UHGV virus genome: UHGV-1363354
DNA length: 40,302 nucleotides
Source of the DNA: a virus
Strand: one strand, 5' to 3'
The position numbers and the translations under genes were made by a program. The notes below the pieces were generated by a model. It saw nothing but the letters and a program-made list of their open reading frames with translations. It made no database searches and was not told the origin of the DNA. Within the stretch, counting starts at the first letter, position 1; each line of letters begins with the position of its first letter. Below, piece by piece: positions 2,690 through 35,754 of this stretch.

Positions 2690-3184
2690 CTACTTCACGG
2701 CCCTGCCAATAGCCTCGGCCTCGGCCGCCGATTTGCCGTCGAATAGCGCGAGTCGCCCGGTTGCGCGCCGGCGCAGTCCCAGCATCACCTTACCGCCCTG
2801 ATAGATGAACTGCGGCAGCTTGGTGCGCAGCGTCGCAATATCCCCGCGTCGCAGCGCCTGGCCGGTTCCGGTACTGGGCGCGATCACTTTCGGCCCGGCG
2901 TTGAATACCAGATCTACCATGGCGTCGAAGTACGGCCCGGTGACCAGCGGATGCGCCACTGCGTCTACCTGGCGCTCGGCGTCCGTCATATCCTGGCGCA
3001 GTAACGCCCGCGAGTCCGGCTCGGTGATACTTGCCGGCGCCTGGGCGCGCGTTCCGGTGTGACCGTATCCCCAGGTCAGGATCCCGCGCTCCTTCTCTTT
3101 GGCGGTCGCGTAATACGGCACAGGCTTAAACGTCTCCCAGCGCCGGGCGAATTCAACGGCGTTATCGCTGACTGTTCTTTGCAT
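2690..3184 (-). CDS. Endolysin, GH24 (T4-lysozyme-type) muramidase
   Basis: FARRWETFKPVPYYATAKEKERGILTWGYGHTG motif (catalytic E...D...T) characteristic of phage lysozyme family 24. Confidence 0.85.
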   Translation of the reverse strand: MQRTVSDNAVEFARRWETFKPVPYYATAKEKERGILTWGYGHTGTRAQAPASITEPDSRALLRQDMTDAERQVDAVAHPLVTGPYFDAMVDLVFNAGPKVIAPSTGTGQALRRGDIATLRTKLPQFIYQGGKVMLGLRRRATGRLALFDGKSAAEAEAIGRAVK

Positions 3185-3446
3185 GGATTAACCTCCGATA
3201 TTTGATGTAGCGCACCGACTTAACACAGGCGCTGCGCAGAAATGACAATGTGACCAGCACCAGGAGTGTTGACCAGATGAATAACGGCGCGCTGCCGTCT
3301 TTGTAGATGTGGATCAGCCCGGCTCCGCAGGTGAGAAACAGGCCCATGAATGCCAGGCGGCCCAGCAGGCCGTCGTCGACCCAGTGGGCGTAAATGTTAA
3401 ACAGCGCGGTTGCGGCGATAACGGAAAGGCAGAAGGCACTAAGCAT
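3162..3446 (-). CDS. Holin (3 predicted transmembrane segments, charged C-terminus)
   Basis: 94-aa membrane protein immediately upstream of and overlapping the lysozyme gene. Hydrophobic segments plus a KYRRLIHAKNSQR tail. Confidence 0.6.
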   Translation of the reverse strand: MLSAFCLSVIAATALFNIYAHWVDDGLLGRLAFMGLFLTCGAGLIHIYKDGSAPLFIWSTLLVLVTLSFLRSACVKSVRYIKYRRLIHAKNSQR

Positions 3447-3448
3447 GG

Positions 3449-3730
3449 CTATTTACCCCACGGTAGTTTAAAGCCGCTCGCCGCTACTTCCAGGGCCTCG
3501 AAGAATTTCCACCAGAAGGCGCCGATCACGAAAGGCACCAGGTATTGCCCGTCGGTGTCCGCCAGCTCGAAATAGCGGATCCCAAACGGTGAGAAGTAAA
3601 CGGCACAAGCGGCACCGGCGGCCAGGTGAGCGCAGCGCTTCCACAACGGTAGCTGCTCTGCTTTCTTCACCTGGGCCACGATGCCGCCGCATACGGCTGC
3701 GACGACAAGCCAGAAATATCTGTCAATCAA
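3449..3730 (-). CDS. Second holin-like / antiholin-like small membrane protein
   Basis: 93-aa protein with 2-3 hydrophobic helices. TTG start abutting a hairpin T-run. Position directly upstream of the holin. Confidence 0.4.
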   Translation of the reverse strand: MIDRYFWLVVAAVCGGIVAQVKKAEQLPLWKRCAHLAAGAACAVYFSPFGIRYFELADTDGQYLVPFVIGAFWWKFFEALEVAASGFKLPWGK

Positions 3731-18897: not shown

Positions 18898-19381
18898 CAA
18901 ATCAAACACGGCTCCGGAGGATAAGGACTGCTGGCGCTCACCACCGGAGATATTCGAGCCGCTGAATGAGCGGTTTAATTTCCGCTATGACATGGCGGCA
19001 GCAGATCACAATGCACTTTGCGCACGGTACTACACGGAACAGAATAGCGCCCTGGGTATCGAGTGGCCCGCAGCATGGAAATGGTGTAACCCGCCATACT
19101 CGAAGCCGCTGCCTTGGTTCCAGCACGCCGCGCAGTACCGGAAAACGGTGTTGCTCCTGCACCTGGCCGTCGCTACGCAGTGGATGGATATTGCGCGCCG
19201 GGAGGCGAATACCATCATTCAGCTGACAGAGCGCATTCAGTTTATCCACGCCAGGACCGGCGAGCGCGCGGCGACGAAGAACAACCGCGACTCGGAGATC
19301 ATCATCTTTGGCCGTCGGCCTAACCCTGACGGCGCGCGCATCGTCCAGTGCTCGATCGCGGATATCGCAAAATATCTATAA
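18890..19381 (+). CDS. dam: Phage-type DNA N6-adenine methyltransferase (Dam)
   Basis: DMAAADHNALCARYYT and catalytic NPPY (WCNPPYSK) motifs. Confidence 0.8.
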   Translation: MADKSNTAPEDKDCWRSPPEIFEPLNERFNFRYDMAAADHNALCARYYTEQNSALGIEWPAAWKWCNPPYSKPLPWFQHAAQYRKTVLLLHLAVATQWMDIARREANTIIQLTERIQFIHARTGERAATKNNRDSEIIIFGRRPNPDGARIVQCSIADIAKYL

Positions 19382-19417
19382 ATGTTGGTTGCAATATTAG
19401 CGAAGTCATATTATATT
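19382..19417 (+). promoter_or_regulatory. Promoter (c): ATGTTGGTTGCAAT - 17 - TATATT
   Basis: -35 TTGCAA at 19389-19394 and -10 TATATT at 19412-19417. About 80% identical over 58 bp to the promoter at 35462. Confidence 0.5.
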
Positions 19418-19436
19418 TAGTTCATAGGGCGGCGCG

Positions 19437-19637
19437 GTGCCGCAGATGATCGAGGAAAAGATGATGAAACCAAACCAGAAAGCCGCTTTATGGCGTAAGA
19501 TAGAAGATTACGCCGCTGCAATGGTCGCGGACTCATGGAAAGGGGCCGGGGACCCAGAGGATTATGAATCGCTTGTCCGCGGTCTGGAAGAAGCCAAAAA
19601 CGAATTAAGTAACTATATAGAGAAGTTGTCATCTTAA
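19437..19637 (+). CDS. Hypothetical small protein (66 aa)
   Basis: First gene of the promoter-(c) cassette. Followed by a GGCCCCgcaaGGGGCC hairpin. Confidence 0.45.
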   Translation: MPQMIEEKMMKPNQKAALWRKIEDYAAAMVADSWKGAGDPEDYESLVRGLEEAKNELSNYIEKLSS

Positions 19638-20025: not shown

Positions 20026-20277
20026 TATTTCAGAAACGCCATTGTCTTTTCGCAGGGCGTTTATCGACTCCAGTAATTCCGGATATCGGACGCATAAGCC
20101 CCGTATGTAGTCGTAGAAAAAATCATTTCGTCCTTTATTCTCGCCTTTTATGCTCTGGAATGCAGAAAATACCTCATCTTTACTATTTCCGGATAAGAAC
20201 GCGGTGACAATATCATCGACGCTAAATCCGGAGTAACCCGCGATTGGTAAAACAAAATTAATATTCATGACGTCCAC
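20023..20277 (-). CDS. Hypothetical protein downstream of the tailspike (84 aa; possible fibre assembly/accessory protein)
   Basis: Overlaps the tailspike stop. Last gene of the leftward operon. Confidence 0.4.
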   Translation of the reverse strand: MDVMNINFVLPIAGYSGFSVDDIVTAFLSGNSKDEVFSAFQSIKGENKGRNDFFYDYIRGLCVRYPELLESINALRKDNGVSEI

Positions 20278-22568
20278 CTTGCGAAAATCTGAATAGACCT
20301 GTTAGCTGCTGCCGTCAAGGTTAACGCTGGCGCCGAACTTCCCGGCCAGGTTAGCGCCAACGTCTCCGACGAAATGGCGTGCGACACCGAATAAGCCACA
20401 ACCTTTGAAGCGTCTACGGAAGCCACTGTGCCTTTTAAAACCTTAGTTGCGAATTTAGTGCCTTGATAGCTTGATCCATCTGCAAGGCGTAATCCTGCGT
20501 CGATTTCAACGACTCCATGTAATGGCGACAAGCCTCTACTAATACCTATTTGATACGCTACACCAGGAGTGCAATTAAGCAGGATCTCAGACCACATATA
20601 CGTCCCTTGCGAATAAGTAAGGCCAGTGCCTAAGGGTCCGGATTTCTCCCCGAAAGATAATGTGTTAAACCGAGGTACTGATGGCCTGAAATCGTGCGAT
20701 GAAATATCATTCTCAAGCGTCACCTCGCCGGCAGCAAAAGACCCGCTCGCGGTAAGATTTAAACCGGTATAAGTGCCGACGTTGCCAAGAGATAGCCGTC
20801 TAAGATCGTTTAATCCATACTCGAAAACGCCAGCAGACGCCGGGGCGCTGTTATCTTCAACGCGGACTGCGGCAGCTTTAGTATCTGTCTGGTCGCCGTG
20901 TAGGCAAAATATCGCGCGGAAATTGGAGGTAAGGTTGCCGTTTACAGTACCAATCTCTGAGTCATACACGGAGCAAGTAGGGCCGCAGACAAAAGCGTAA
21001 CGATTACCCGAAATAACCATAGGACCAATCTGGGTCCTTGCAAATGAGTTTTGCCCGGTATTAGCACCGTTGATATATTCCCGGTTAAATCGAATAAATT
21101 CGCGGTTATTTGCCGATTTAGGCATAATAAATCGGTTGTTCTCAGACCACGCCGTCATATTAAGCATATGCACCGCCGGTCCGTAAAAACCATCAATGGC
21201 AATAGCGCCATCAAACAACGCATGATTAAGGTCTTCGCAGCGAAGCCCACCAAAAGCGTTCGAATTTTTGTTTACTATACGAAGGTTGTTACAGATTAAA
21301 CTCCCGTGGGCTATCGCAGTCCCTGCCTGCTTAAGTAATATAGGGTAAAACGCTTCTCGGACATCAACCTCGTTAACAACGCAAGCAGTCGGCGTCACCG
21401 AATACGTATCATCCCTTAATTCTAAAACGTGGCTGGTAGCCGTGGCTGTAAATGCGGCATACCTTGCAGCGGGCCCGGATTCATTGGAATTCGATATTGC
21501 TACACCGTCAAGCCGCACGCGGAGAGTACCTTTCGAGGTATATGTCTCAGAAACAACGCTAACCGCGTATTTTTTCCCTACAGTCAGCCCAGTTAATGTT
21601 ATGCTGGCGGACGCTTGTGCGGCGGTAGTACCTGCAAAAACAAGAGTCGACCCCGATAAAGTCACTCCGTTAGCCAGAGTCCATCCGGTAAACGTCTTGT
21701 CATTTAGTATCAGAGATCCGCCATAAGACATAATCTGGGCGCCACTAAAATCGATATATTTATTAGCTTCGTTCACGCTGGCCGTCTTATTCACGGTCAC
21801 TGTTGCGTTGAGGGCGTACTGCCCCCTGCCACCCATTGACATCCCGGCAGCGCCGCGGGTGACCATCTCATTAACACATCTCTGAAAAGCCGCGTAATCT
21901 ATGGATTGCGTTAATGATGTTACAAAAGGGTAATCTACCTGAGCAAGTGCAAGCGAGGCATATCGCTCAGACAATGGATGCACCGTGCCGTCGGCAATAG
22001 CTCCGAAATCGTAAGGAGTCATCTGGAAATTCAGCTTATAACCTACGGTGCCGCGGTTAAATGCCTGTAAAATGCTGTAACCGATAAGCCCTGGGCCCGT
22101 AACCGCGGCCATTTCCTGCCGTAGCGCTGCATCCCCTACGCTTACAAAATGCAATGAGTCCGCGGCCCATGTTGTAGAGTTGGTACCCGTCGTGGTGAAA
22201 GGCGGCGTGGTTGAGGCATTCAGCCGCCACAATTCACCATTGTAGCGTAAAACCTGATTAAGAGACGATAGCGTTATAATCCCGGAGGTATAATCCCCCA
22301 TGAATTGATACCCGGAAGCCAGCAAAAAATTCTGGAAAGCATTTTCTTGCGAGGTTAATTGGTCTTCAAAAGCAAGTTCCGCATCCCGCATAATAGCGGG
22401 CATTGTTTTTTGGTCCTGGTCGGTCACCGGATTATTAGCGGTGTCGATAGCCACCCCGGAAGGGACCCCGCCGGCGTGCCCGGTGATTACTTCGGCCTCG
22501 AAAACCTGGTGTTTTTTGGCCGTTTTCAGATCTTCCAGCGATAAGACGTCGCCGCATCCGCTTGACAT
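20265..22568 (-). CDS. Tailspike / tail fibre with a predicted right-handed beta-helix, a receptor-binding or depolymerase candidate
   Basis: 767 aa. The N-terminal roughly 130 aa are anchor-like. The central region is rich in short N/G/S/T-containing beta-strand repeats (NNLRIVNKNSNAFGG...ISGNRYAFVCG). Confidence 0.65.
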   Translation of the reverse strand: MSSGCGDVLSLEDLKTAKKHQVFEAEVITGHAGGVPSGVAIDTANNPVTDQDQKTMPAIMRDAELAFEDQLTSQENAFQNFLLASGYQFMGDYTSGIITLSSLNQVLRYNGELWRLNASTTPPFTTTGTNSTTWAADSLHFVSVGDAALRQEMAAVTGPGLIGYSILQAFNRGTVGYKLNFQMTPYDFGAIADGTVHPLSERYASLALAQVDYPFVTSLTQSIDYAAFQRCVNEMVTRGAAGMSMGGRGQYALNATVTVNKTASVNEANKYIDFSGAQIMSYGGSLILNDKTFTGWTLANGVTLSGSTLVFAGTTAAQASASITLTGLTVGKKYAVSVVSETYTSKGTLRVRLDGVAISNSNESGPAARYAAFTATATSHVLELRDDTYSVTPTACVVNEVDVREAFYPILLKQAGTAIAHGSLICNNLRIVNKNSNAFGGLRCEDLNHALFDGAIAIDGFYGPAVHMLNMTAWSENNRFIMPKSANNREFIRFNREYINGANTGQNSFARTQIGPMVISGNRYAFVCGPTCSVYDSEIGTVNGNLTSNFRAIFCLHGDQTDTKAAAVRVEDNSAPASAGVFEYGLNDLRRLSLGNVGTYTGLNLTASGSFAAGEVTLENDISSHDFRPSVPRFNTLSFGEKSGPLGTGLTYSQGTYMWSEILLNCTPGVAYQIGISRGLSPLHGVVEIDAGLRLADGSSYQGTKFATKVLKGTVASVDASKVVAYSVSHAISSETLALTWPGSSAPALTLTAAANRSIQIFARWTS

Positions 22569-26534: not shown

Positions 26535-28802
26535 TTAAAATCCTGGCTGGTTGCGCGTGTTACGGCGGGATAGCGAGATCTGCGAATTACTGTCCTGCAT
26601 GTCGCTGGATACCGTTTCCCGGATAAGTATACGTAATCGCCCTTCATCATCGCGTTCTGTGCTGGCCTGGTCAATACGCCCGGTAGTCTGGTTGACGATC
26701 ACCACACTATCGCTACTGTTCTGCTTGCTGCCGTTCTCACCCATAATCTGGCGCATCTGCTGCGCGGTGCGCACGCGCGACGCCGAGGCGGGCATAATCA
26801 CTTCTGGCTTGCCGCGCTCGGCGATAGTCGACGCCTGCCCCGCGGCCAGCGCGCCGCCCTGTTCGCGTGCCGATCGAATCTTGGCGACGTTTGCCAGACC
26901 CGCAGCTACGATGGTGGCCGCGAGTATAGGTCCAAGAATGGGCCCGCCCTCCGCCAGTGCCTTAGTTGCCGCGAGATACGTTGATATAACAGACTGCGTT
27001 ATTGCGGCAGCCTTATAAACGGCGGTATTTTCGTCACTGGCTGCGGCGACATTACTGGCGATCTGCTCCCAGGTGCTGAGGTCGGCCTGCAGGGATTCCT
27101 CATTTTTCTGCTTTTGAAGCTCTATCTTCGCGTTCTGGTATTCTTCTTCGCTCACCAGACCTTTTTTATGGAACTCGTCAAGTTTTTCCTGCTTGATGGC
27201 ATATTGCCGGTCTAATTCTGCGGCTTCTCCCTCAAAACTAGACTGTAGCTGTGCTATATACGCGTCAGCGGATTTTTGGTCGTTCATCCGCTCTTCGGTC
27301 TGCTTGGTCAGAAGCTCGTTACGCTGGGTATCCGCATCCTGCATTATCTGTGTTTTGGCGTCTTCATACTCCTGCTGGCTCAGGAGCCCGGCTTTATTAA
27401 ACTCCGCCAGTTTCGCCAGTTTCTGCTGTTCCTGCGCATCGATCGCCTTAAACTCGTCCTGGTTCTGCCGCGCTAACGTCGCAAGGAAGTCCGCAGCCTG
27501 TTTCTTCTGCTGTTCCAGTTGTTTAGCCGCGGCTTTTGCGGCCTTATCCGCGCTCGCCGAAGTTCCACCAGTTGTGCCGCCAGACGCACCCGGCTTGTTT
27601 ACCAGATCCTGTAATTTGGTTTCCTGATTGCGTTTCTCTTCATACTGGCGACGTTGCTCGGCAATTTCTTTCTGACGCAGCGCGGAGCGCTCGCGGATCC
27701 CGTCGGCCTCTGCTTTAGACGCCGCAAGGGATGCCGCATAAGCCTTGTCCGCCTCTGCCGTCATATTCTTATACGTGAGGCTTGCTGTCTTGCTCACGTC
27801 GAACACATCAACCAGTGACTGTCCTAACGCTACCGCATAATCGTCGATGCGCTGGAACCAGGCGATGATGTCGTGGAATGTCTGCTGTATCTCCGGCAGC
27901 CAGTCCCGGATCGCGTCCGGTACCGTCATCAACGAGTCGGCCATATCGTTACTGTGGCCTTCGGTATCAAAGGCCAGGTCGTTCAGTGCGTCCGATATAA
28001 ATTTAAACGAGTCATCGAACAGGTCGCGCCAGTCGCGGATCGCCCCTATTAGCTCGCCGGATGCAATAGCGTCACTAAGGGACTGGATCGCGTCTTCTGC
28101 GATCTTCGCCTGCTCTGCCAAAGCGTCGCCGAAGCCGGATTGAGCAATGTTAAGCACCAGGCCGTCGAAGGTATCTTCCAGGCTGGACAACACGCCATCA
28201 AGCGAGTTGGCGCGGGCTTCCATCGCCCCGGCAAAGTCAGTGTTACCGATGTTGAGAAGGTATTTCTGAATCTCTTCCGAGTTTTTCTTGACGGTCGTCG
28301 TCACGCCCCGGAAAGTGAAGGATACGTTATCACCCTGCTGGCTGGCTTTGATGCCAAACTCTTTCAGACGTTCGAACTCGCCCGTAGCTGCGTCCGCCAC
28401 GGCTTCGATCATCTGGTTAAGGTCTTTACCCATCGCGGCGGCAGTGTTGCCGTAGGATATGAGGGCTTCTTTGCTCGGGTTGAGGCCGAGGGCCACCAGT
28501 TTAGTGAACCCCTCTACCGCCTGATTCAGGCCGTAGGGTGTGTCTTTTGCAAACTGCTGAAGGATGGAGAAGGCCTTCGCGGCATTCTCCGTGCTTCCGG
28601 TCATCGTGACCAGACCGGCGTTAAGTTTGTCAAAATTCCGTTGGGAGGCAACCAGCGAGTCAAAGACCTGTTTTGCCGTCGCAAGCCCGCCGATGGCCGT
28701 ACCCGCGGCGACGGCGGCTTTACCCAGTTTACCCAGACTCGCGCTGGCACTGTCAACGCCGTTGGTCGTTACCTTGATAATAAGGCTTGCGATATCAGCC
28801 AT
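26535..28802 (-). CDS. Tail tape measure protein
   Basis: 755 aa, Ala/Gln/Glu-rich with long coiled coils. Follows the G/GT chaperones. Confidence 0.8.
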   Translation of the reverse strand: MADIASLIIKVTTNGVDSASASLGKLGKAAVAAGTAIGGLATAKQVFDSLVASQRNFDKLNAGLVTMTGSTENAAKAFSILQQFAKDTPYGLNQAVEGFTKLVALGLNPSKEALISYGNTAAAMGKDLNQMIEAVADAATGEFERLKEFGIKASQQGDNVSFTFRGVTTTVKKNSEEIQKYLLNIGNTDFAGAMEARANSLDGVLSSLEDTFDGLVLNIAQSGFGDALAEQAKIAEDAIQSLSDAIASGELIGAIRDWRDLFDDSFKFISDALNDLAFDTEGHSNDMADSLMTVPDAIRDWLPEIQQTFHDIIAWFQRIDDYAVALGQSLVDVFDVSKTASLTYKNMTAEADKAYAASLAASKAEADGIRERSALRQKEIAEQRRQYEEKRNQETKLQDLVNKPGASGGTTGGTSASADKAAKAAAKQLEQQKKQAADFLATLARQNQDEFKAIDAQEQQKLAKLAEFNKAGLLSQQEYEDAKTQIMQDADTQRNELLTKQTEERMNDQKSADAYIAQLQSSFEGEAAELDRQYAIKQEKLDEFHKKGLVSEEEYQNAKIELQKQKNEESLQADLSTWEQIASNVAAASDENTAVYKAAAITQSVISTYLAATKALAEGGPILGPILAATIVAAGLANVAKIRSAREQGGALAAGQASTIAERGKPEVIMPASASRVRTAQQMRQIMGENGSKQNSSDSVVIVNQTTGRIDQASTERDDEGRLRILIRETVSSDMQDSNSQISLSRRNTRNQPGF

Positions 28803-29079
28803 CTTCCCGGCCCTCGAAAATTGCGTCCAGGCCCATGATAAGGCCAGCTTCGAAAATGCTTATGTTCTGCTTAGTTACCTGCTGATACGCCACTATGTCG
28901 GACCAGTCTACCGCTTTACGCGGTATTAGTGTAACGGCTTCCGGCGTGACCTTGTGCGCAAACTTCAAATCTTTGTACTTGTTGAAAATGGGTAGCATGT
29001 CCGGGGGGCATTCTGGCCCGGTAGCCCGCGCTGTAACTCTCCCGCCGTGGCTGATACCCATCGCCGTCAGCGCCGCCAT
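28795..29079 (-). CDS. T-portion of the tail assembly chaperone fusion, reached by a programmed -1 frameshift from G
   Basis: The -1 frame relative to the G ORF is open from about 29205 down to 28795, overlapping the G stop. Confidence 0.55.
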   Translation of the reverse strand: MAALTAMGISHGGRVTARATGPECPPDMLPIFNKYKDLKFAHKVTPEAVTLIPRKAVDWSDIVAYQQVTKQNISIFEAGLIMGLDAIFEGREDG

Positions 29080-29159
29080 GTGGCCGTCCTCAATTGCATC
29101 AAACTTCTGCTGTCTGTAGCGATCGACGAACGTCCACGTAGCAAATTGGTACAGCGCTG

Positions 29160-29585
29160 TTACTTTTCCTTCTGGCTTTCGCGCAGGGTAGCCATGAAGG
29201 CCGCCACCATGTTACCCAAGCCTTTGTACTGACTAAGCAGCGTAGCGAATGCCTCTTTGGTGAAAGGCTCCGCCTCGCCCGTCTCTGCGTCAATGAAGCT
29301 CCAGCCGTTGACAATTTCCAGGGCCATTTCATCGTTCAGTCGCGCGCAGGCGTCGTTAACCTGAATCGCGTAGGATACCTGGTCGCCGGACTCTTTCAGC
29401 GGTTCCAGCTCTTTAATGACGGCCTGATATGCGGCAAAGAACGCGCGGTTCGCCTGCTCGACCTCATCGGCAGCAGGTAGCATCACGTTCAGCCACTCAC
29501 CGGAATCGCTGCCGTCTGGCAGGGGGATCGCCATGTGCGTGCCTACTACAGCTTTATCTTTGAAATAAAAATCACGTAACTGCAT
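29160..29585 (-). CDS. Tail assembly chaperone (lambda gpG-like)
   Basis: 141-aa acidic protein between the major tail and tape-measure genes. Ends ...ESQKEK* with GAAAAGTAA at the 3' end. Confidence 0.55.
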   Translation of the reverse strand: MQLRDFYFKDKAVVGTHMAIPLPDGSDSGEWLNVMLPAADEVEQANRAFFAAYQAVIKELEPLKESGDQVSYAIQVNDACARLNDEMALEIVNGWSFIDAETGEAEPFTKEAFATLLSQYKGLGNMVAAFMATLRESQKEK

Positions 29586-29700
29586 GTTTTGCGCCTCGGT
29601 TTGTGTGTCGTGGAAATATTTTAGCTTTTTTCTTGCGCTTTATCCAACGGCACTTTATATTAGTCCTGTAATATTAGTTCACACATAAAAGGAAGCGCCA

Positions 29701-29877
29701 TGAATTCTTTAATTTTTACCATGCTCGTTGTTAACTTCATCCCGTGGTTCGTCGCTTTGCACCGCAACCATAACGCAAAGCTGGGCGTGTTTATCAGTAG
29801 CCTGTTCCTTAACTGGACTCTGCTGGGCTGGGTGTTAAACCTGGTTTGGGCCTGTAACTCTAATACGAAGAAATAAG
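29701..29877 (+). CDS. Superinfection immunity protein (Imm-like small membrane protein), plus-strand moron with own promoter
   Basis: MNSLIFTMLVVNFIPWFVALHRNHNAKLGVFISSLFLNWTLLGWVLNLVWACNSNTKK. HRNH and NWTLLGW signature. Two transmembrane helices. TTGCGC - 17 - TATATT promoter at about 29642-29670. Confidence 0.5.
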
Positions 29878-29903
29878 GAGGGGGCCGTGGTTAAAATGCT
29901 AAA

Positions 29904-29927
29904 GGCCCCTTCCGGGGCCTTTCTTTT
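29904..29927. terminator. Bidirectional terminator GGCCCC-ttcc-GGGGCC + TTTCTTTT
   Basis: Follows the imm-like gene on the plus strand. Abuts the major tail gene stop on the minus strand. Confidence 0.55.
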
Positions 29928-31092
29928 ACGCGTATACAATGCGCTGAATGACGATAGACGACTGCTGGCTGTTGCCCGTCGCCTGGCCCTCGATACTTTG
30001 AGTAACCGACTCTGCGCCGCCAATCTCCGGCGTTACTGCTGTTAGCTCCGCCCGTTTCAGAGAGAACGACATAGCGCCGCTCACCCCGGCCAGAATAGAG
30101 TTAATTTCTACCGGTGTCTCGTTGATGAATTTCTGGATCATCGCCATGTCGTACAGCTTGCCAGCAATCGAGAAAGTGTTAGTTGCGCGGCCACGCTCAA
30201 CGAAAGCCACGTTGCTGTTACCTAACTCAAACTGCGCAGAGGCTGCGTTGTCGTTGGTGATGGTCAGCGTGTCGCATTTCAGCGGTTCGGTGCCATCGAA
30301 CACAGACACGTCGACCGAGGCGAACGGCTGGGCGTCAAATACGATCTGCGAGAAATCGGAACCGGCCGGCGGTTCCGTGAGCACTTCCTGCGACATACCG
30401 ATGAACGGGAAGCTGCCGGTGATCATGGCGTTAACCGCTTGCTCGATAGTGAAGCCTGAAATCTCAACGCCACGCGTAATAACGAAGCTGTCCGGGTTAC
30501 CGCACTGGCCTTTGAACCAGGTCAGCACAGAGAAGGTTTTACACAGGTTCCCGGTTCCCAGCTTGTCGCCAGTGGCGTAATCTGTCTCAACCGCGGCGGC
30601 GGTAGTCAGGGCGTGTTGGATAGCCGCTCCAGTAACAACCAGCTCGGTAACGGCGGTCACGATAAACGGCAGCGCATTGTTGCCCGCCAGCCCCGCGAAG
30701 CGAATCAGGTCGCCGACTTCAACGCCATCAGTCAGGAAACTACCGTCCGCGCGGGTGAACGTTTTCGCGGTGGCGTCAACGGCTACAGAGAGCGCCGTAC
30801 CCGACACGCCCGCAGCCCATGAAGAAGTCATGGCGCCCGCCAGCAAATCATCCTGGCTTTTCGAACTCAGTTCGATCGCATATTCCCCGGAGACCTGTCT
30901 GTTACCGGTGCGGATGAATGCTGTTTCGCGGCTGCCGTCCAGCTCGTTAGATGTCAGCGCGTCGCGCGTCATCGCCGGAACGCCGCCAGTGTTGCGCAGA
31001 GGCGACCACACCGGGTTAGCAGGAGTTGTGCCAGGGGTCGTCTCTTCGGTGTAGAATTGCGCTGTTAGTGCGCCTTTGTATGGCTGTACCAT
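29926..31092 (-). CDS. Major tail (tube) protein
   Basis: 388 aa. Lies between the tail-terminator-like gene and the G/GT chaperones. Confidence 0.6.
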   Translation of the reverse strand: MVQPYKGALTAQFYTEETTPGTTPANPVWSPLRNTGGVPAMTRDALTSNELDGSRETAFIRTGNRQVSGEYAIELSSKSQDDLLAGAMTSSWAAGVSGTALSVAVDATAKTFTRADGSFLTDGVEVGDLIRFAGLAGNNALPFIVTAVTELVVTGAAIQHALTTAAAVETDYATGDKLGTGNLCKTFSVLTWFKGQCGNPDSFVITRGVEISGFTIEQAVNAMITGSFPFIGMSQEVLTEPPAGSDFSQIVFDAQPFASVDVSVFDGTEPLKCDTLTITNDNAASAQFELGNSNVAFVERGRATNTFSIAGKLYDMAMIQKFINETPVEINSILAGVSGAMSFSLKRAELTAVTPEIGGAESVTQSIEGQATGNSQQSSIVIQRIVYA

Positions 31093-31094
31093 TT

Positions 31095-31511
31095 TTATAG
31101 CCTCGCAGTATATGCTATGAAATTAATGGATAGCGGGCGCTTGGCCCATCCGTTTTGCACTATCAGAGGCCCCAGGCTCACCGATCGCACTTCGGCGCAA
31201 ATTGCGTTGCGCGACACCGCAGATCCCGCTTTAAACGCCGCATTCAATAAGTCTGCCATTTTATTAAGGTCGGCGCTACCTACGGTCGAGGCGTAATTAA
31301 TGTCAACCTGATAAATACCGGCACGCCGTTCCGTCCAGGACAAGTCGCCCTGCTCGGTATCCGCAAGTAACATGTAACTCGCCAGATACGGCGTTGCCGT
31401 TGATGTGGGCGCGTCAATGTTCTCCAGCGCAACGGCGATATTGTTGGCCTCGCCGAAGGCCTTCAACGCGATATCAAACGCTTTCGTCAGGTCTTCAAAA
31501 TACCCGGCCAT
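31095..31511 (-). CDS. Tail terminator-like protein (lambda gpU position)
   Basis: 138 aa, immediately upstream of the major tail gene. Confidence 0.4.
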   Translation of the reverse strand: MAGYFEDLTKAFDIALKAFGEANNIAVALENIDAPTSTATPYLASYMLLADTEQGDLSWTERRAGIYQVDINYASTVGSADLNKMADLLNAAFKAGSAVSRNAICAEVRSVSLGPLIVQNGWAKRPLSINFIAYTARL

Positions 31512-35366: not shown

Positions 35367-35461
35367 AGTACGTAGACCCCTGGTCTTTATGAATCCGGGC
35401 CACCCGGATTTACATACGCTAAATATACAGGGCAGCGCAAGTATTAACAATATATCTGTAA

Positions 35462-35497
35462 ATGTTGGTTGCAATATGAGTGGAGACATATTACAGT
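35462..35497 (+). promoter_or_regulatory. Promoter (d): ATGTTGGTTGCAAT - 17 - TACAGT, a near-duplicate of promoter (c)
   Basis: -35 TTGCAA at 35469-35474 and -10 at 35492-35497, followed by the conserved TTAGTTCAT. Confidence 0.5.
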
Positions 35498-35529
35498 TAG
35501 TTCATCGAGCCGAAACCGAGGAAACCAAC

Positions 35530-35754
35530 ATGAAAATCGAAATCAGCAACATCAACGTGAACAATGACTATCTTGTTAAAAATATCGCCGGTAATGCAGG
35601 TTATGCCGCGAGTATAGAAACCGTCAACGAAACGACGATCGCTATTGACTTAGGCGACGAGGCGCATCGTGAGAAGGCTGGCATCCGTGTTATAGATGTC
35701 GAAAGAATGTTCTCGCTGTTCATCATGGCGGGCTTCACCATCCGCAAAATCTAA
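35530..35754 (+). CDS. Hypothetical protein (74 aa), first gene of the promoter-(d) cassette
   Basis: Strong RBS GAGGAAACC upstream of ATG 35530. Confidence 0.45.
   Translation: MKIEISNINVNNDYLVKNIAGNAGYAASIETVNETTIAIDLGDEAHREKAGIRVIDVERMFSLFIMAGFTIRKI

What the first reader, a model, noticed from the sequence alone, without database searches (positions are those of the whole stretch)
29640..29927. Imm-like superinfection-immunity membrane protein inserted antisense between the tail-chaperone and major-tail genes, with its own promoter and bidirectional terminator
A 58-aa two-transmembrane-helix protein with the FVALHRNH...NWTLLGW signature of T4-Imm-type superinfection immunity proteins is encoded on the opposite strand to the surrounding late genes. 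It is preceded by TTGCGC-17-TATATT and the shared TTAGTTCA element, and followed by GGCCCCttccGGGGCC+T-run. This is a classic moron position and would be expressed independently of late transcription.
Basis: partly seen in the sequence, partly recalled or inferred. Interest (0 to 1): 0.55.

Follow-up and report, generated by a model that had tools for sequence, protein, structure and literature searches.

The report
T4-Imm-type superinfection exclusion gene
A small membrane-protein gene in the tail-gene cluster of a Klebsiella phage is a genuine relative of phage T4's Imm protein, which stops a second phage from injecting its DNA; relatives of this phage already carry and annotate the same gene in the same place, so it is real but ordinary.

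Summary
ORF 29700-29876 (+) encodes 58 aa and passes Pfam Imm_superinfect (PF14373: 46.1 bits, cut-off 27.9; E 4.7e-12). It aligns without gaps to T4 Imm (36% identity over 50 aa, E 3e-17). It keeps the two T4 residues whose mutation weakens exclusion (R33 = R22, W50 = W39). It lies opposite in orientation between the tail tube gene and the tail-assembly chaperone/tape-measure (TMP) genes.

It is not new. The window is a virulent Klebsiella Guernseyvirinae siphophage. Phage 37P2 has an 84%-identical gene annotated "superinfection immunity protein" in the same slot, as do K1G, SS3e and LPSE1. It is therefore a conserved slot, not a recent insertion.

The claimed promoter exists but is weak (-35 matches 3 of 6). 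The terminator hairpin is real and conserved.

The likely mechanism, inferred from a 2026 preprint on T4, is that Imm binds the incoming phage's TMP in the inner membrane and blocks DNA entry.

Supporting context found here:
- Sister phage VLCpiS11a has a swapped chaperone/TMP module and an HK97-gp15-like protein in the slot.
- In other siphovirus contigs, Imm homologues sit directly upstream of the TMP gene.

Verdict: new member of a known kind, modest interest.

The parts
29633..29661 (+). Candidate sigma-70-type promoter of imm: -35 TTGCGC (29633-38), 17-nt spacer, -10 TATATT (29656-61)
   Evidence: Read from the sequence. The -35 matches TTGACA at 3 of 6 positions but matches the phage's own recurrent TTGCAA at 4 of 6. 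The -10 is identical to that of the strong promoter at 19389-19417. The consensus scan did not call it. Relatives have clear promoters before imm: TTGCAT-17-TATTAT, TTGCAC-17-TACTAT and TTGCAA-17-TAGTAT.
29669..29681 (+). Alternative -10 TAATAT (29669-74) directly followed by TAGTTCA, the same -10/start-site arrangement as the promoters at 19389 and 35467
   Evidence: CTGTAATAT is conserved between the window and 37P2, whereas TATATT is TACATT in 37P2. There is no acceptable -35 upstream of it.
29689..29693 (+). Shine-Dalgarno AAGGA, 6 nt before the ATG
   Evidence: Sequence.
29700..29876 (+). imm-like gene, 58 aa, Imm_superinfect family (PF14373)
   Evidence: Pfam 46.1 bits against cut-off 27.9. 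PHROG 1039 at 1.3e-19. T4 Imm E 3e-17. 84% identical to the 37P2 'superinfection immunity protein'. Purifying selection. AF2 pLDDT 94.9.
29877..29913 (+). Strong hairpin in the + strand RNA that excludes the terminator hairpin (antiterminator-like); window-specific
   Evidence: -25.6 kcal/mol, z -5.2, 0 of 200 shuffles. It is the MFE of the whole 29877-29935 stretch.
29901..29927 (.). Shared intrinsic-terminator hairpin: AAAGGCCCC-ttcc-GGGGCCTTT, followed by TTTCTTTT on + and TTTAGCATTTT on -. It begins 6 nt after the tube gene's stop codon on the minus strand.
   Evidence: -16.3 kcal/mol, z -3.5. It is the minus-strand MFE. The stem is kept with a different loop in L020/L021 (gaaa) and with its arms exchanged in 37P2 (GGGGCC-taac-GGCCCC).
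29618..29646 (-). Promoter-like site TGGATA-17-TAAAAT facing the chaperone/TMP genes, divergent from the imm promoter
   Evidence: The only site the consensus scan called in 29000-30500. TAAAAT is conserved in 37P2.
29160..29585 (-). Tail-assembly chaperone (G); left neighbour
   Evidence: phrog_15027 at 2.9e-33.
26535..28802 (-). Tape measure protein, the proposed target class of Imm; hydrophobic segment at residues 615-642
   Evidence: phrog_1538 at 3.2e-158. Sub-threshold Pfam TMP_3 match. Hydropathy.
29926..31092 (-). Tail tube (major tail) protein; right neighbour
   Evidence: PF18906 Phage_tube_2 at 3.9e-32. phrog_290.

Best explanation
ORF 29700-29876 is a functional gene for a small helical inner-membrane protein of the Imm_superinfect family, the family of phage T4 Imm, in a virulent Klebsiella siphophage of the subfamily Guernseyvirinae. 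It is a one-gene unit transcribed against the late tail genes. It most likely uses a host sigma-70-type promoter in the chaperone-imm intergenic region and ends at a hairpin it shares with the convergent tail tube gene.

Shown here: family membership, conservation of the functionally tested residues, conserved position, and purifying selection.

Inferred: soon after infection the protein inserts into the inner membrane. When a second related phage adsorbs, Imm binds the tape measure protein leaving that phage's tail. This prevents the TMP from forming the inner-membrane conduit, so the incoming DNA does not reach the cytoplasm. This is the mechanism reported for T4 Imm and gp29. Linkage of imm to the chaperone/TMP genes would keep an exclusion protein with the TMP type it recognises.
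For: Family membership:
- Pfam PF14373 46.1 bits against 27.9; PHROG 1039.
- Gapless 50-aa alignment to T4 Imm, E 3e-17.
- P15, R22, F31, L35, W39, W44 and W50 are invariant across T4, Kagunavirus, Jerseyvirus and the Klebsiella clade.
- R22 and W39 correspond to T4 R33 and W50, whose alanine mutants lose exclusion activity (bioRxiv 10.64898/2026.03.06.709160).
- The AF2 model is confident and all-helical.

Real gene: 23 synonymous against 9 non-synonymous codon changes versus 37P2. 1305 phage records encode a homologue.

Mechanism:
- The preprint shows a co-purified, cryo-EM-resolved Imm-TMP complex.
- HK97 gp15, a different small inner-membrane exclusion protein whose specificity maps to the tail region of the excluded phage and which the 2026 preprint describes as acting on the TMP, is encoded between the chaperone and the TMP.

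Context found here:
- In 15 Guernseyvirinae, 7 of 7 with the window's TMP N-terminal type carry Imm next to the chaperone. 0 of 8 with the other TMP type do.
- 33 of 34 assessable Imm-positive IMG/VR loci have the window's TMP type.
- VLCpiS11a is 97-100% identical to the window in the distal tail genes. Its TMP residues 1-640 are only about 20-44% identical and its chaperone 44-49%, and the slot holds an HK97-gp15-like protein instead of Imm.
- In 13 (plus 4 truncated) of 44 non-Guernseyvirinae viral contigs, the Imm homologue lies 70-760 bp upstream, on the same strand, of a 770-1830 aa ORF. 8 of 8 tested are TMPs. They fall into about 6 TMP lineages of 60% identity or less.
Against: - No experiment exists on any Guernseyvirinae Imm. 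The T4 mechanism comes from one unreviewed preprint with a roughly 6 A map.
- The window TMP has no detectable similarity to T4 gp29 (E 2.1).
- The window protein lacks T4 Imm's N-terminal helix and C-terminal tail.
- Adjacency to the TMP could be simple hitch-hiking of neighbouring genes. There is one exception, L051, with Imm plus the other TMP type.
- Imm cores are more conserved than the adjacent TMPs. Identical Imm cores sit beside TMPs only 56-84% identical, which argues against tight one-to-one specificity.
- The promoter is weak by consensus.
- A Kagunavirus RNA-seq study placed the homologue in its 'late' class (PMC12645636). That time course ran far past the 30-min latent period, and strand handling is not stated.
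Confidence: 0.6

Rival explanations
1. Producer self-protection. The protein neutralises the phage's own newly made TMP, which has a membrane-active hydrophobic segment, so that it does not insert into and damage the inner membrane from the inside before tail assembly. [quoted passage not shown]
For: There is tight genetic linkage to the chaperone/TMP genes in Guernseyvirinae, and Imm sits directly upstream of the TMP in other siphoviruses. The T4 authors themselves draw the colicin-immunity analogy. The TMP has a hydrophobic segment at residues 615-642.
Against: T4 imm mutants are viable and show a defect in exclusion rather than in tail assembly (established T4 genetics; Lu and Henning 1989 as cited). 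Many Guernseyvirinae lack Imm altogether. The chaperone already shields the TMP. In T4, imm is 90 kb away from gene 29.
Confidence: 0.1
2. A lysis-timing or membrane-stabilising factor (holin-like or antiholin-like) rather than a DNA-entry block. It would limit damage from secondary adsorptions or modulate lysis.
For: T4 Imm has been said to resemble a holin, and imm mutants show partially defective lysis inhibition (review PMC6832632). The protein is small and hydrophobic. The K1B4 paper describes the homologue as lysis-related and 'late'.
Against: Relatives annotate two holins and an endolysin at the collinear locus, and the window has matching small ORFs there (window about 2690-3730). The gene is not in that cassette. 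The T4 phenotype is explained by blocked DNA entry. There is no Pfam holin hit.
Confidence: 0.07
3. The ORF is a chance or decaying reading frame in an intergenic spacer, and the motifs are coincidental.
For: It is short (58 aa). It has lower G+C (44.6% against 55.2%). The promoter is weak.
Against: The HMM score is significant. It is conserved in about 1300 phage records. Third-position and synonymous substitutions dominate. It has a good SD sequence, and the AF2 model has pLDDT 94.9.
Confidence: 0.01

Closest known systems
Phage T4 Imm (NP_049660; Pfam PF14373 Imm_superinfect)
   Same: Homologous core: window residues 9-58 align with T4 residues 20-69 at 36% identity and 66% similarity with no gaps. 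It shares PWF.AL.R...NW..GW...W, including R33/R22 and W50/W39. It is a small hydrophobic helical protein encoded by a virulent phage.
   Different: - 58 aa against 83 aa; it lacks T4's N-terminal helix (residues 1-19) and the charged C-terminal tail.
- The host phage is a siphovirus whose TMP is unrelated in sequence to gp29.
- The gene lies next to the TMP module, whereas T4 imm is about 90 kb from gene 29.
- No Spackle partner was looked for or seen.
Annotated Imm homologues of Guernseyvirinae (37P2 UOX38094.1; K1G gp23; SS3e orf59; LPSE1 LPSE_00062)
   Same: Same family, same slot and same opposite orientation beside the tail-assembly chaperone. 84% identity to 37P2 and 52-56% to the others.
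   Different: In Kagunavirus and Jerseyvirus, imm is the first gene of a 3-4 gene operon (exonuclease, polynucleotide kinase, ATPase, etc.) filling the gap between chaperone and tube. In the window, 37P2 and metagenomic relatives (L020-L022), only imm remains. The window's promoter is more degenerate.
HK97 gp15 (the original 'moron'; Pfam YebO-like PF13974)
   Same: A small inner-membrane superinfection-exclusion protein whose specificity maps to the tail region of the excluded phage (the 2026 preprint attributes it to the TMP). It is encoded as a self-contained unit inside the tail operon beside the TMP gene. A gp15-like protein occupies the window's slot in sister phage VLCpiS11a.
   Different: It is an unrelated family: one TM helix plus a cytoplasmic helix, and the window protein has no PF13974 hit. 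It has the same orientation as the tail genes and is expressed from a prophage.
[quoted passage not shown]
   Same: A small inner-membrane helical protein, encoded next to the gene for the membrane-inserting protein it neutralises, often in opposite orientation.
   Different: No sequence relationship. The comparison is an analogy proposed by the T4 preprint and has not been tested.

Membership tests
Imm_superinfect (Pfam PF14373; T4 Imm family) | Scores above the family's curated gathering threshold | tested here: met
   46.1 bits against 27.9, E 4.7e-12, covering profile positions 3-42 of 42. PHROG 1039 at 1.3e-19.
Imm_superinfect (Pfam PF14373; T4 Imm family) | Direct similarity to the one experimentally characterised member, T4 Imm | tested here: met
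   BLASTP 36% identity over 50 aa, no gaps, E 3e-17.
Imm_superinfect (Pfam PF14373; T4 Imm family) | Conservation of residues shown to matter for exclusion in T4 (R33, W50) | tested here: met
   R22 and W39 are invariant in the 12-sequence alignment. They are present in 82/94 and 87/93 family members. Mutant data come from the preprint.
Imm_superinfect (Pfam PF14373; T4 Imm family) | Small hydrophobic helical membrane protein | tested here: met
   Hydropathy segments at 1-22 and 28-49. AF2 helices at 3-21, 27-37 and 41-51, pLDDT 94.9. Localisation itself was not tested.
Imm_superinfect (Pfam PF14373; T4 Imm family) | Blocks DNA entry of superinfecting phage (exclusion phenotype) | not testable with these tools
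   Requires expression and plating or DNA-uptake assays.
Imm_superinfect (Pfam PF14373; T4 Imm family) | Binds the tape measure protein | not testable with these tools
   Only gene-neighbourhood support. There is no similarity between the window TMP and T4 gp29.
Imm_superinfect (Pfam PF14373; T4 Imm family) | Early expression from a host-type promoter | tested here: inconclusive
   TTGCGC-17-TATATT is present but was not called by the scan. Relatives have clear TTGCAx-17-TAnTAT promoters. The only RNA-seq on a relative is uninformative.
Moron (independent transcription unit added to a phage genome, after HK97) | Own promoter and own terminator | tested here: inconclusive
   The terminator hairpin is solid and conserved. 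The promoter is plausible but weak. A competing + strand hairpin exists.
Moron (independent transcription unit added to a phage genome, after HK97) | Base composition different from neighbours | tested here: met
   44.6% G+C against 54.9-57.8% for the flanking genes and 55.2% for the window. Hydrophobic-codon bias may contribute.
Moron (independent transcription unit added to a phage genome, after HK97) | Present or absent between otherwise similar genomes (recent acquisition) | tested here: not met
   The slot beside the chaperone is occupied in every one of the 15 Guernseyvirinae loci examined. Imm there is shared by three clades. When it changes, the chaperone and most of the TMP change with it.
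HK97 gp15 / YebO-like (PF13974) | HMM or pairwise similarity to gp15 | tested here: not met
   The window protein has no PF13974 hit. By contrast, the VLCpiS11a slot protein scores 26.6 bits (GA 27) and is 41% identical to gp15 over 34 aa.

The most novel reading that the evidence does not exclude
In siphoviruses, the chaperone-TMP junction is a dedicated site for small inner-membrane proteins aimed at the TMP. These include Imm-family proteins, HK97-gp15/YebO-family proteins and possibly others. They travel with the TMP type they recognise, like colicin/immunity pairs, and so define superinfection-exclusion groups. The window and its sister phage VLCpiS11a would be a natural swap of one such pair (Imm + TMP_3-type TMP against gp15-like + TMP_2-type TMP) in an otherwise near-identical tail. 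That would extend the T4 Imm-TMP mechanism to non-contractile-tailed phages.
Probability: 0.4. Interest if true: 0.55.

Novelty: new member of a known kind. Interest (0 to 1): 0.3.

Why it matters
On its own it matters little. It adds one more sequence to a Pfam family that is routinely annotated in this phage subfamily.

There is practical relevance. Guernseyvirinae are used in Klebsiella, E. coli and Salmonella phage cocktails. An exclusion gene determines which related phages can co-infect and recombine, and whether cocktail members interfere with each other.

There is also a more general point. The gene-neighbourhood pattern seen while checking the finding fits the recent claim that T4 Imm works by binding the TMP. 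That pattern is Imm beside or directly upstream of tape-measure genes in many siphovirus lineages, and exchange for an HK97-gp15-like gene together with the TMP. It offers a small, tractable pair of natural variants (window or 37P2 against VLCpiS11a) for testing TMP-specific exclusion in non-contractile phages.

Tried and rejected
- Megablast of the imm region against complete E. coli genomes found no match, so there is no evidence of a prophage or host origin there.
- NCBIfam and PADLOC gave no hit for the protein. It is not a catalogued defence-system component in those libraries.
- A PDB sequence-profile search and Foldseek of the AF2 model against the PDB found no relative, so no solved structure could be compared.
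- BLASTP of the window TMP against T4 gp29 found no similarity (E 2.1). A shared Imm-binding domain cannot be argued from sequence.
- A strict 'Imm only with TMP type A' rule is rejected. L051 carries Imm with a type-B TMP, and outside Guernseyvirinae Imm sits beside TMP_2-type TMPs.
- The 'shared TTAGTTCA element' as a regulatory motif for imm is rejected as unsupported. The count is not significant, and imm lacks the roughly 55-nt block that the other two copies share.
- Local BLAST with composition-based statistics wrongly reported no TMP similarity. It was repeated with the correction off.
- Kagunavirus K1B4 RNA-seq as evidence for timing is set aside. Sampling ran to 120 min against a 30-min latent period, and strand handling is not described.
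- One fold (L008:33975-34015) used wrong coordinates for the 37P2 terminator and is disregarded.

Full report
**What is there.** The window carries an ATG-initiated ORF at 29700-29876 on the + strand. It encodes 58 aa (MNSLIFTMLVVNFIPWFVALHRNHNAKLGVFISSLFLNWTLLGWVLNLVWACNSNTKK) and is preceded by AAGGA 6 nt upstream. All its neighbours are on the minus strand:
- tail terminator, 31095-31511
- tail tube protein, 29926-31092 (Pfam Phage_tube_2, 3.9e-32)
- tail-assembly chaperone G, 29160-29585, with its T extension at 28795-29079
- tape measure protein (TMP), 26535-28802

**Is it an Imm homologue?** Yes. The evidence is:
- Pfam Imm_superinfect (PF14373) scores 46.1 bits against a gathering score of 27.9 (E 4.7e-12), covering almost the whole 42-position model.
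- PHROG 1039 'immunity to superinfection' scores 1.3e-19.
- Direct BLASTP to T4 Imm, retrieved from NC_000866, gives 36% identity and 66% similarity over 50 residues without a gap, E 3e-17. Window residues 9-58 align with T4 residues 20-69.
- In an alignment of T4, Kagunavirus, Jerseyvirus and Klebsiella-clade proteins, P15, R22, F31, L35, W39, W44 and W50 are invariant.
- In a 94-member alignment from a profile search of 5.8 billion proteins, R22 is Arg in 82/94 and W39 is Trp in 87/93.

The gene is under purifying selection. Against 37P2 it is 77% identical in DNA, with 26 of 40 differences at third positions and 23 synonymous against 9 non-synonymous codon changes.

AlphaFold2 with that alignment gives a confident all-helical model (pLDDT 94.9, pTM 0.76). 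Its helices are 3-21 (kinked at P15), 27-37 and 41-51, with the conserved N38-W39-T40 forming the turn between the last two. Hydropathy shows two hydrophobic stretches. No solved structure matches by sequence or fold.

Compared with T4 Imm, the protein lacks the N-terminal helix and the C-terminal tail. It is essentially the conserved core.

**Where the window comes from, and whether this is new.** The window is about 93% identical over most of its length to Klebsiella phages 37P2 and VLCpiS11a (Guernseyvirinae, about 39-40 kb, no integrase annotated). 37P2 has an 84%-identical protein already annotated 'superinfection immunity protein' in exactly this slot. tblastn finds homologues in 1305 phage records.

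Phages K1G (Kagunavirus), SS3e, LPSE1 and f18SE (Jerseyvirus; unannotated in f18SE) and BUCT823 all have the gene on the opposite strand immediately beside the chaperone. So do metagenomic contigs L020-L022 and 36 IMG/VR contigs. The literature on these phages routinely lists it (PMC5582158, PMC12645636).

In Kagunavirus and Jerseyvirus, imm is the first gene of a 3-4 gene operon filling the chaperone-tube gap. In the Klebsiella clade only imm is left. The gene is therefore a conserved feature of the subfamily rather than a recent insertion, although its G+C is moron-like (44.6% against 55.2%).

**Regulatory signals: promoter.** TTGCGC(29633-38)-17-TATATT(29656-61) exists. However, the -35 matches TTGACA at 3 of 6 positions and lies just outside the stated coordinates. 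The consensus scan did not call it.

It does resemble the phage's own recurrent TTGCAA-17/18-TATAyT promoters at 19389, 9657, 6367 and 2601. Relatives have clear sigma-70-type promoters before imm:
- Jerseyvirus: TTGCAT-17-TATTAT
- K1G: TTGCAC-17-TACTAT
- L020/L021: TTGCAA-17-TAGTAT

In 37P2 the corresponding hexamers are poorer (TGGCGT, TACATT). A second -10 candidate, CTGTAATAT (29666-74), is conserved.

TTAGTTCA occurs three times against 0.76 expected, and 7 of 100 shuffles do as well. The other two copies end a roughly 55-nt shared promoter block in front of two other small + strand ORFs. imm does not share that block.

The only promoter-like site the scan called in the region faces the other way, toward the chaperone: TGGATA-17-TAAAAT, 29646..29618. 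This suggests divergent promoters.

**Regulatory signals: terminator.** The hairpin AAAGGCCCC-ttcc-GGGGCCTTT followed by TTTCTTTT is stable (-16.3 kcal/mol, z -3.5). It starts 6 nt after the tube gene's stop codon on the minus strand, and it is the minus-strand MFE. It is conserved with a different loop in L020/L021 and with exchanged arms in 37P2.

There is one complication. In the + strand RNA, a stronger hairpin at 29877-29913 (-25.6 kcal/mol, z -5.2, 0 of 200 shuffles) uses the terminator's 5' arm. It begins one base after the imm stop codon. Termination of the imm transcript may therefore depend on translation. This hairpin is specific to the window and remains unexplained.

**How it probably works.** A 2026 preprint (bioRxiv 10.64898/2026.03.06.709160) reports that T4 Imm co-purifies with a fragment of the T4 TMP gp29. 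It also reports that a cryo-EM map shows Imm against the TMP helical-bundle domain, and that Imm R33A and W50A reduce exclusion.

These two residues are R22 and W39 here, and both are invariant. HK97 gp15 is an unrelated small inner-membrane protein. It blocks DNA entry with a specificity that maps to the tail region of the excluded phage, and it is encoded between the chaperone and the TMP (PMC3594210).

By inference, the window protein inserts in the inner membrane of the infected cell. There it binds the TMP emerging from a superinfecting related phage and prevents formation of the conduit. None of this was tested for any siphovirus Imm. The window TMP shows no similarity to gp29.

**Context that bears on the mechanism.**

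1. *Module swap in VLCpiS11a.* VLCpiS11a is 97-100% identical to the window in the distal tail proteins and in the last 115 aa of the TMP. Its TMP residues 1-640 are only 20-44% identical, its chaperone G/T are 44-49% identical, and Imm is absent. In Imm's place is an 84-aa single-TM protein that is HK97-gp15-like. It shows 41% identity over 34 aa (E 1e-10) and scores 26.6 bits on Pfam YebO-like; gp15 itself scores 35.4 against GA 27. Two different families of small inner-membrane exclusion proteins therefore alternate in this slot, together with the TMP.

2. *Association with TMP type in Guernseyvirinae.* Among 15 Guernseyvirinae, all 7 with the window's TMP N-terminal type have Imm, and none of the 8 with the other type does. 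Those 8 carry a signal-peptide protein of 108-120 aa or the gp15-like protein. Both TMP types occur in Jerseyvirus, Kagunavirus and the Klebsiella clade. Of 34 assessable Imm-positive IMG/VR loci, 33 have the window's TMP type. One, L051, does not.

3. *Adjacency outside the subfamily.* Of 44 other viral contigs with an Imm homologue, 13 (plus 4 truncated) have it 70-760 bp upstream of, and co-oriented with, a 770-1830 aa ORF. All 8 tested are TMPs by Pfam (TMP_2, TMP_3, Tape_meas_lam_C). They represent about six lineages at 60% TMP identity or less. In L090 the order is tube-like ORF, chaperone, Imm, TMP, which is the HK97 gp15 position.

*Caveats.* Adjacent genes co-segregate without any functional reason, the samples were not phylogenetically corrected, and most loci are partial genomes. 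Imm cores are more conserved than the neighbouring TMPs, so specificity may be broad. T4 itself keeps imm about 90 kb from gene 29.

**Rivals.** Three alternatives were considered:
- Protection of the producing cell from its own TMP (colicin-immunity style) is compatible with the linkage. It fits poorly with T4 genetics and with the many relatives that lack Imm.
- A lysis-timing role has weak historical support. The lysis cassette is elsewhere (by collinearity with the 37P2 holin/lysozyme genes).
- A chance ORF is excluded by conservation.

**Verdict.** This is a new member of a known and already annotated kind, and the interest of the finding itself is low to modest. The recurrent Imm-TMP neighbourhood and the Imm/gp15-like exchange with the TMP module are the only parts that go beyond routine annotation. 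They remain correlative.

Noticed in passing
window 29877-29913 (+ strand RNA), overlapping terminator 29901-29922: A -25.6 kcal/mol hairpin (z -5.2) starts one base after the imm stop codon and uses the 5' arm of the terminator hairpin. This gives an antiterminator/terminator-like alternative that a terminating ribosome could switch. It is absent from 37P2 and from L020/L021.
   Followed up: partly
window 29887-30045 (+): GGAGG (29877-81) followed by GTG opens a 52-aa ORF that runs through the terminator and antisense into the tube gene. It looks like a remnant of the 26-aa ORF that follows imm in 37P2 (shared AAAATGCTnAAAG). It is probably not a gene.
   Followed up: partly
window 19375-19424 and 35459-35504 (+): Two copies of a roughly 55-nt promoter block (TCTrTAAATGTTGGTTGCAATAT...CATATTAnAnTTAGTTCA). 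Each precedes a small + strand ORF: 19461-19637 (phrog_653) and 35530-35754 (phrog_1585). The second lies inside the minus-strand head-gene region, so it is another oppositely oriented small cassette.
   Followed up: partly
window 20265-22568 (-): Only the first roughly 62 aa of the tailspike match 37P2 and VLCpiS11a. The rest is about 90% identical in DNA to Klebsiella phages RCIP0071 and BUCT610. This looks like a receptor-binding (depolymerase) domain swap.
   Followed up: no
L007 (VLCpiS11a) 28912-29166: The 'hypothetical protein' UVX30700 in the Imm slot is an HK97 gp15-like (YebO-like) single-TM protein. HK97 gp15 itself passes Pfam PF13974. The VLCpiS11a record annotates it only as a hypothetical protein; whether the link is made elsewhere was not checked.
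   Followed up: yes
L002 2248-2574, L009 2236-2562, L010 2220-2549, L011 2198-2560, L015-L017 (same slot): Guernseyvirinae with the alternative TMP type carry a 108-120 aa protein with an N-terminal signal peptide (phrog_14165 or phrog_34162, function unknown) as the first gene beside the chaperone. It may be a periplasmic exclusion factor.
   Followed up: partly
window TMP residues about 470-565 (27100-27400, -); proteins P0056, P0063, P0079, P0083, P0086, P0091: Several bacterial Imm-family proteins carry a C-terminal SHOCT domain (PF09851). Both Guernseyvirinae TMP types give sub-threshold SHOCT hits on repeats of the form G(L/I)(L/V)S..EY.(D/N)AK. It is unclear whether this is more than coincidence.
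   Followed up: no
L051 (IMGVR_UViG_641201315_000001, 42,572 bp): This is the only Guernseyvirinae locus seen that combines Imm with the alternative (type B) TMP. It would be a useful natural recombinant for testing whether Imm specificity follows the TMP.
   Followed up: no
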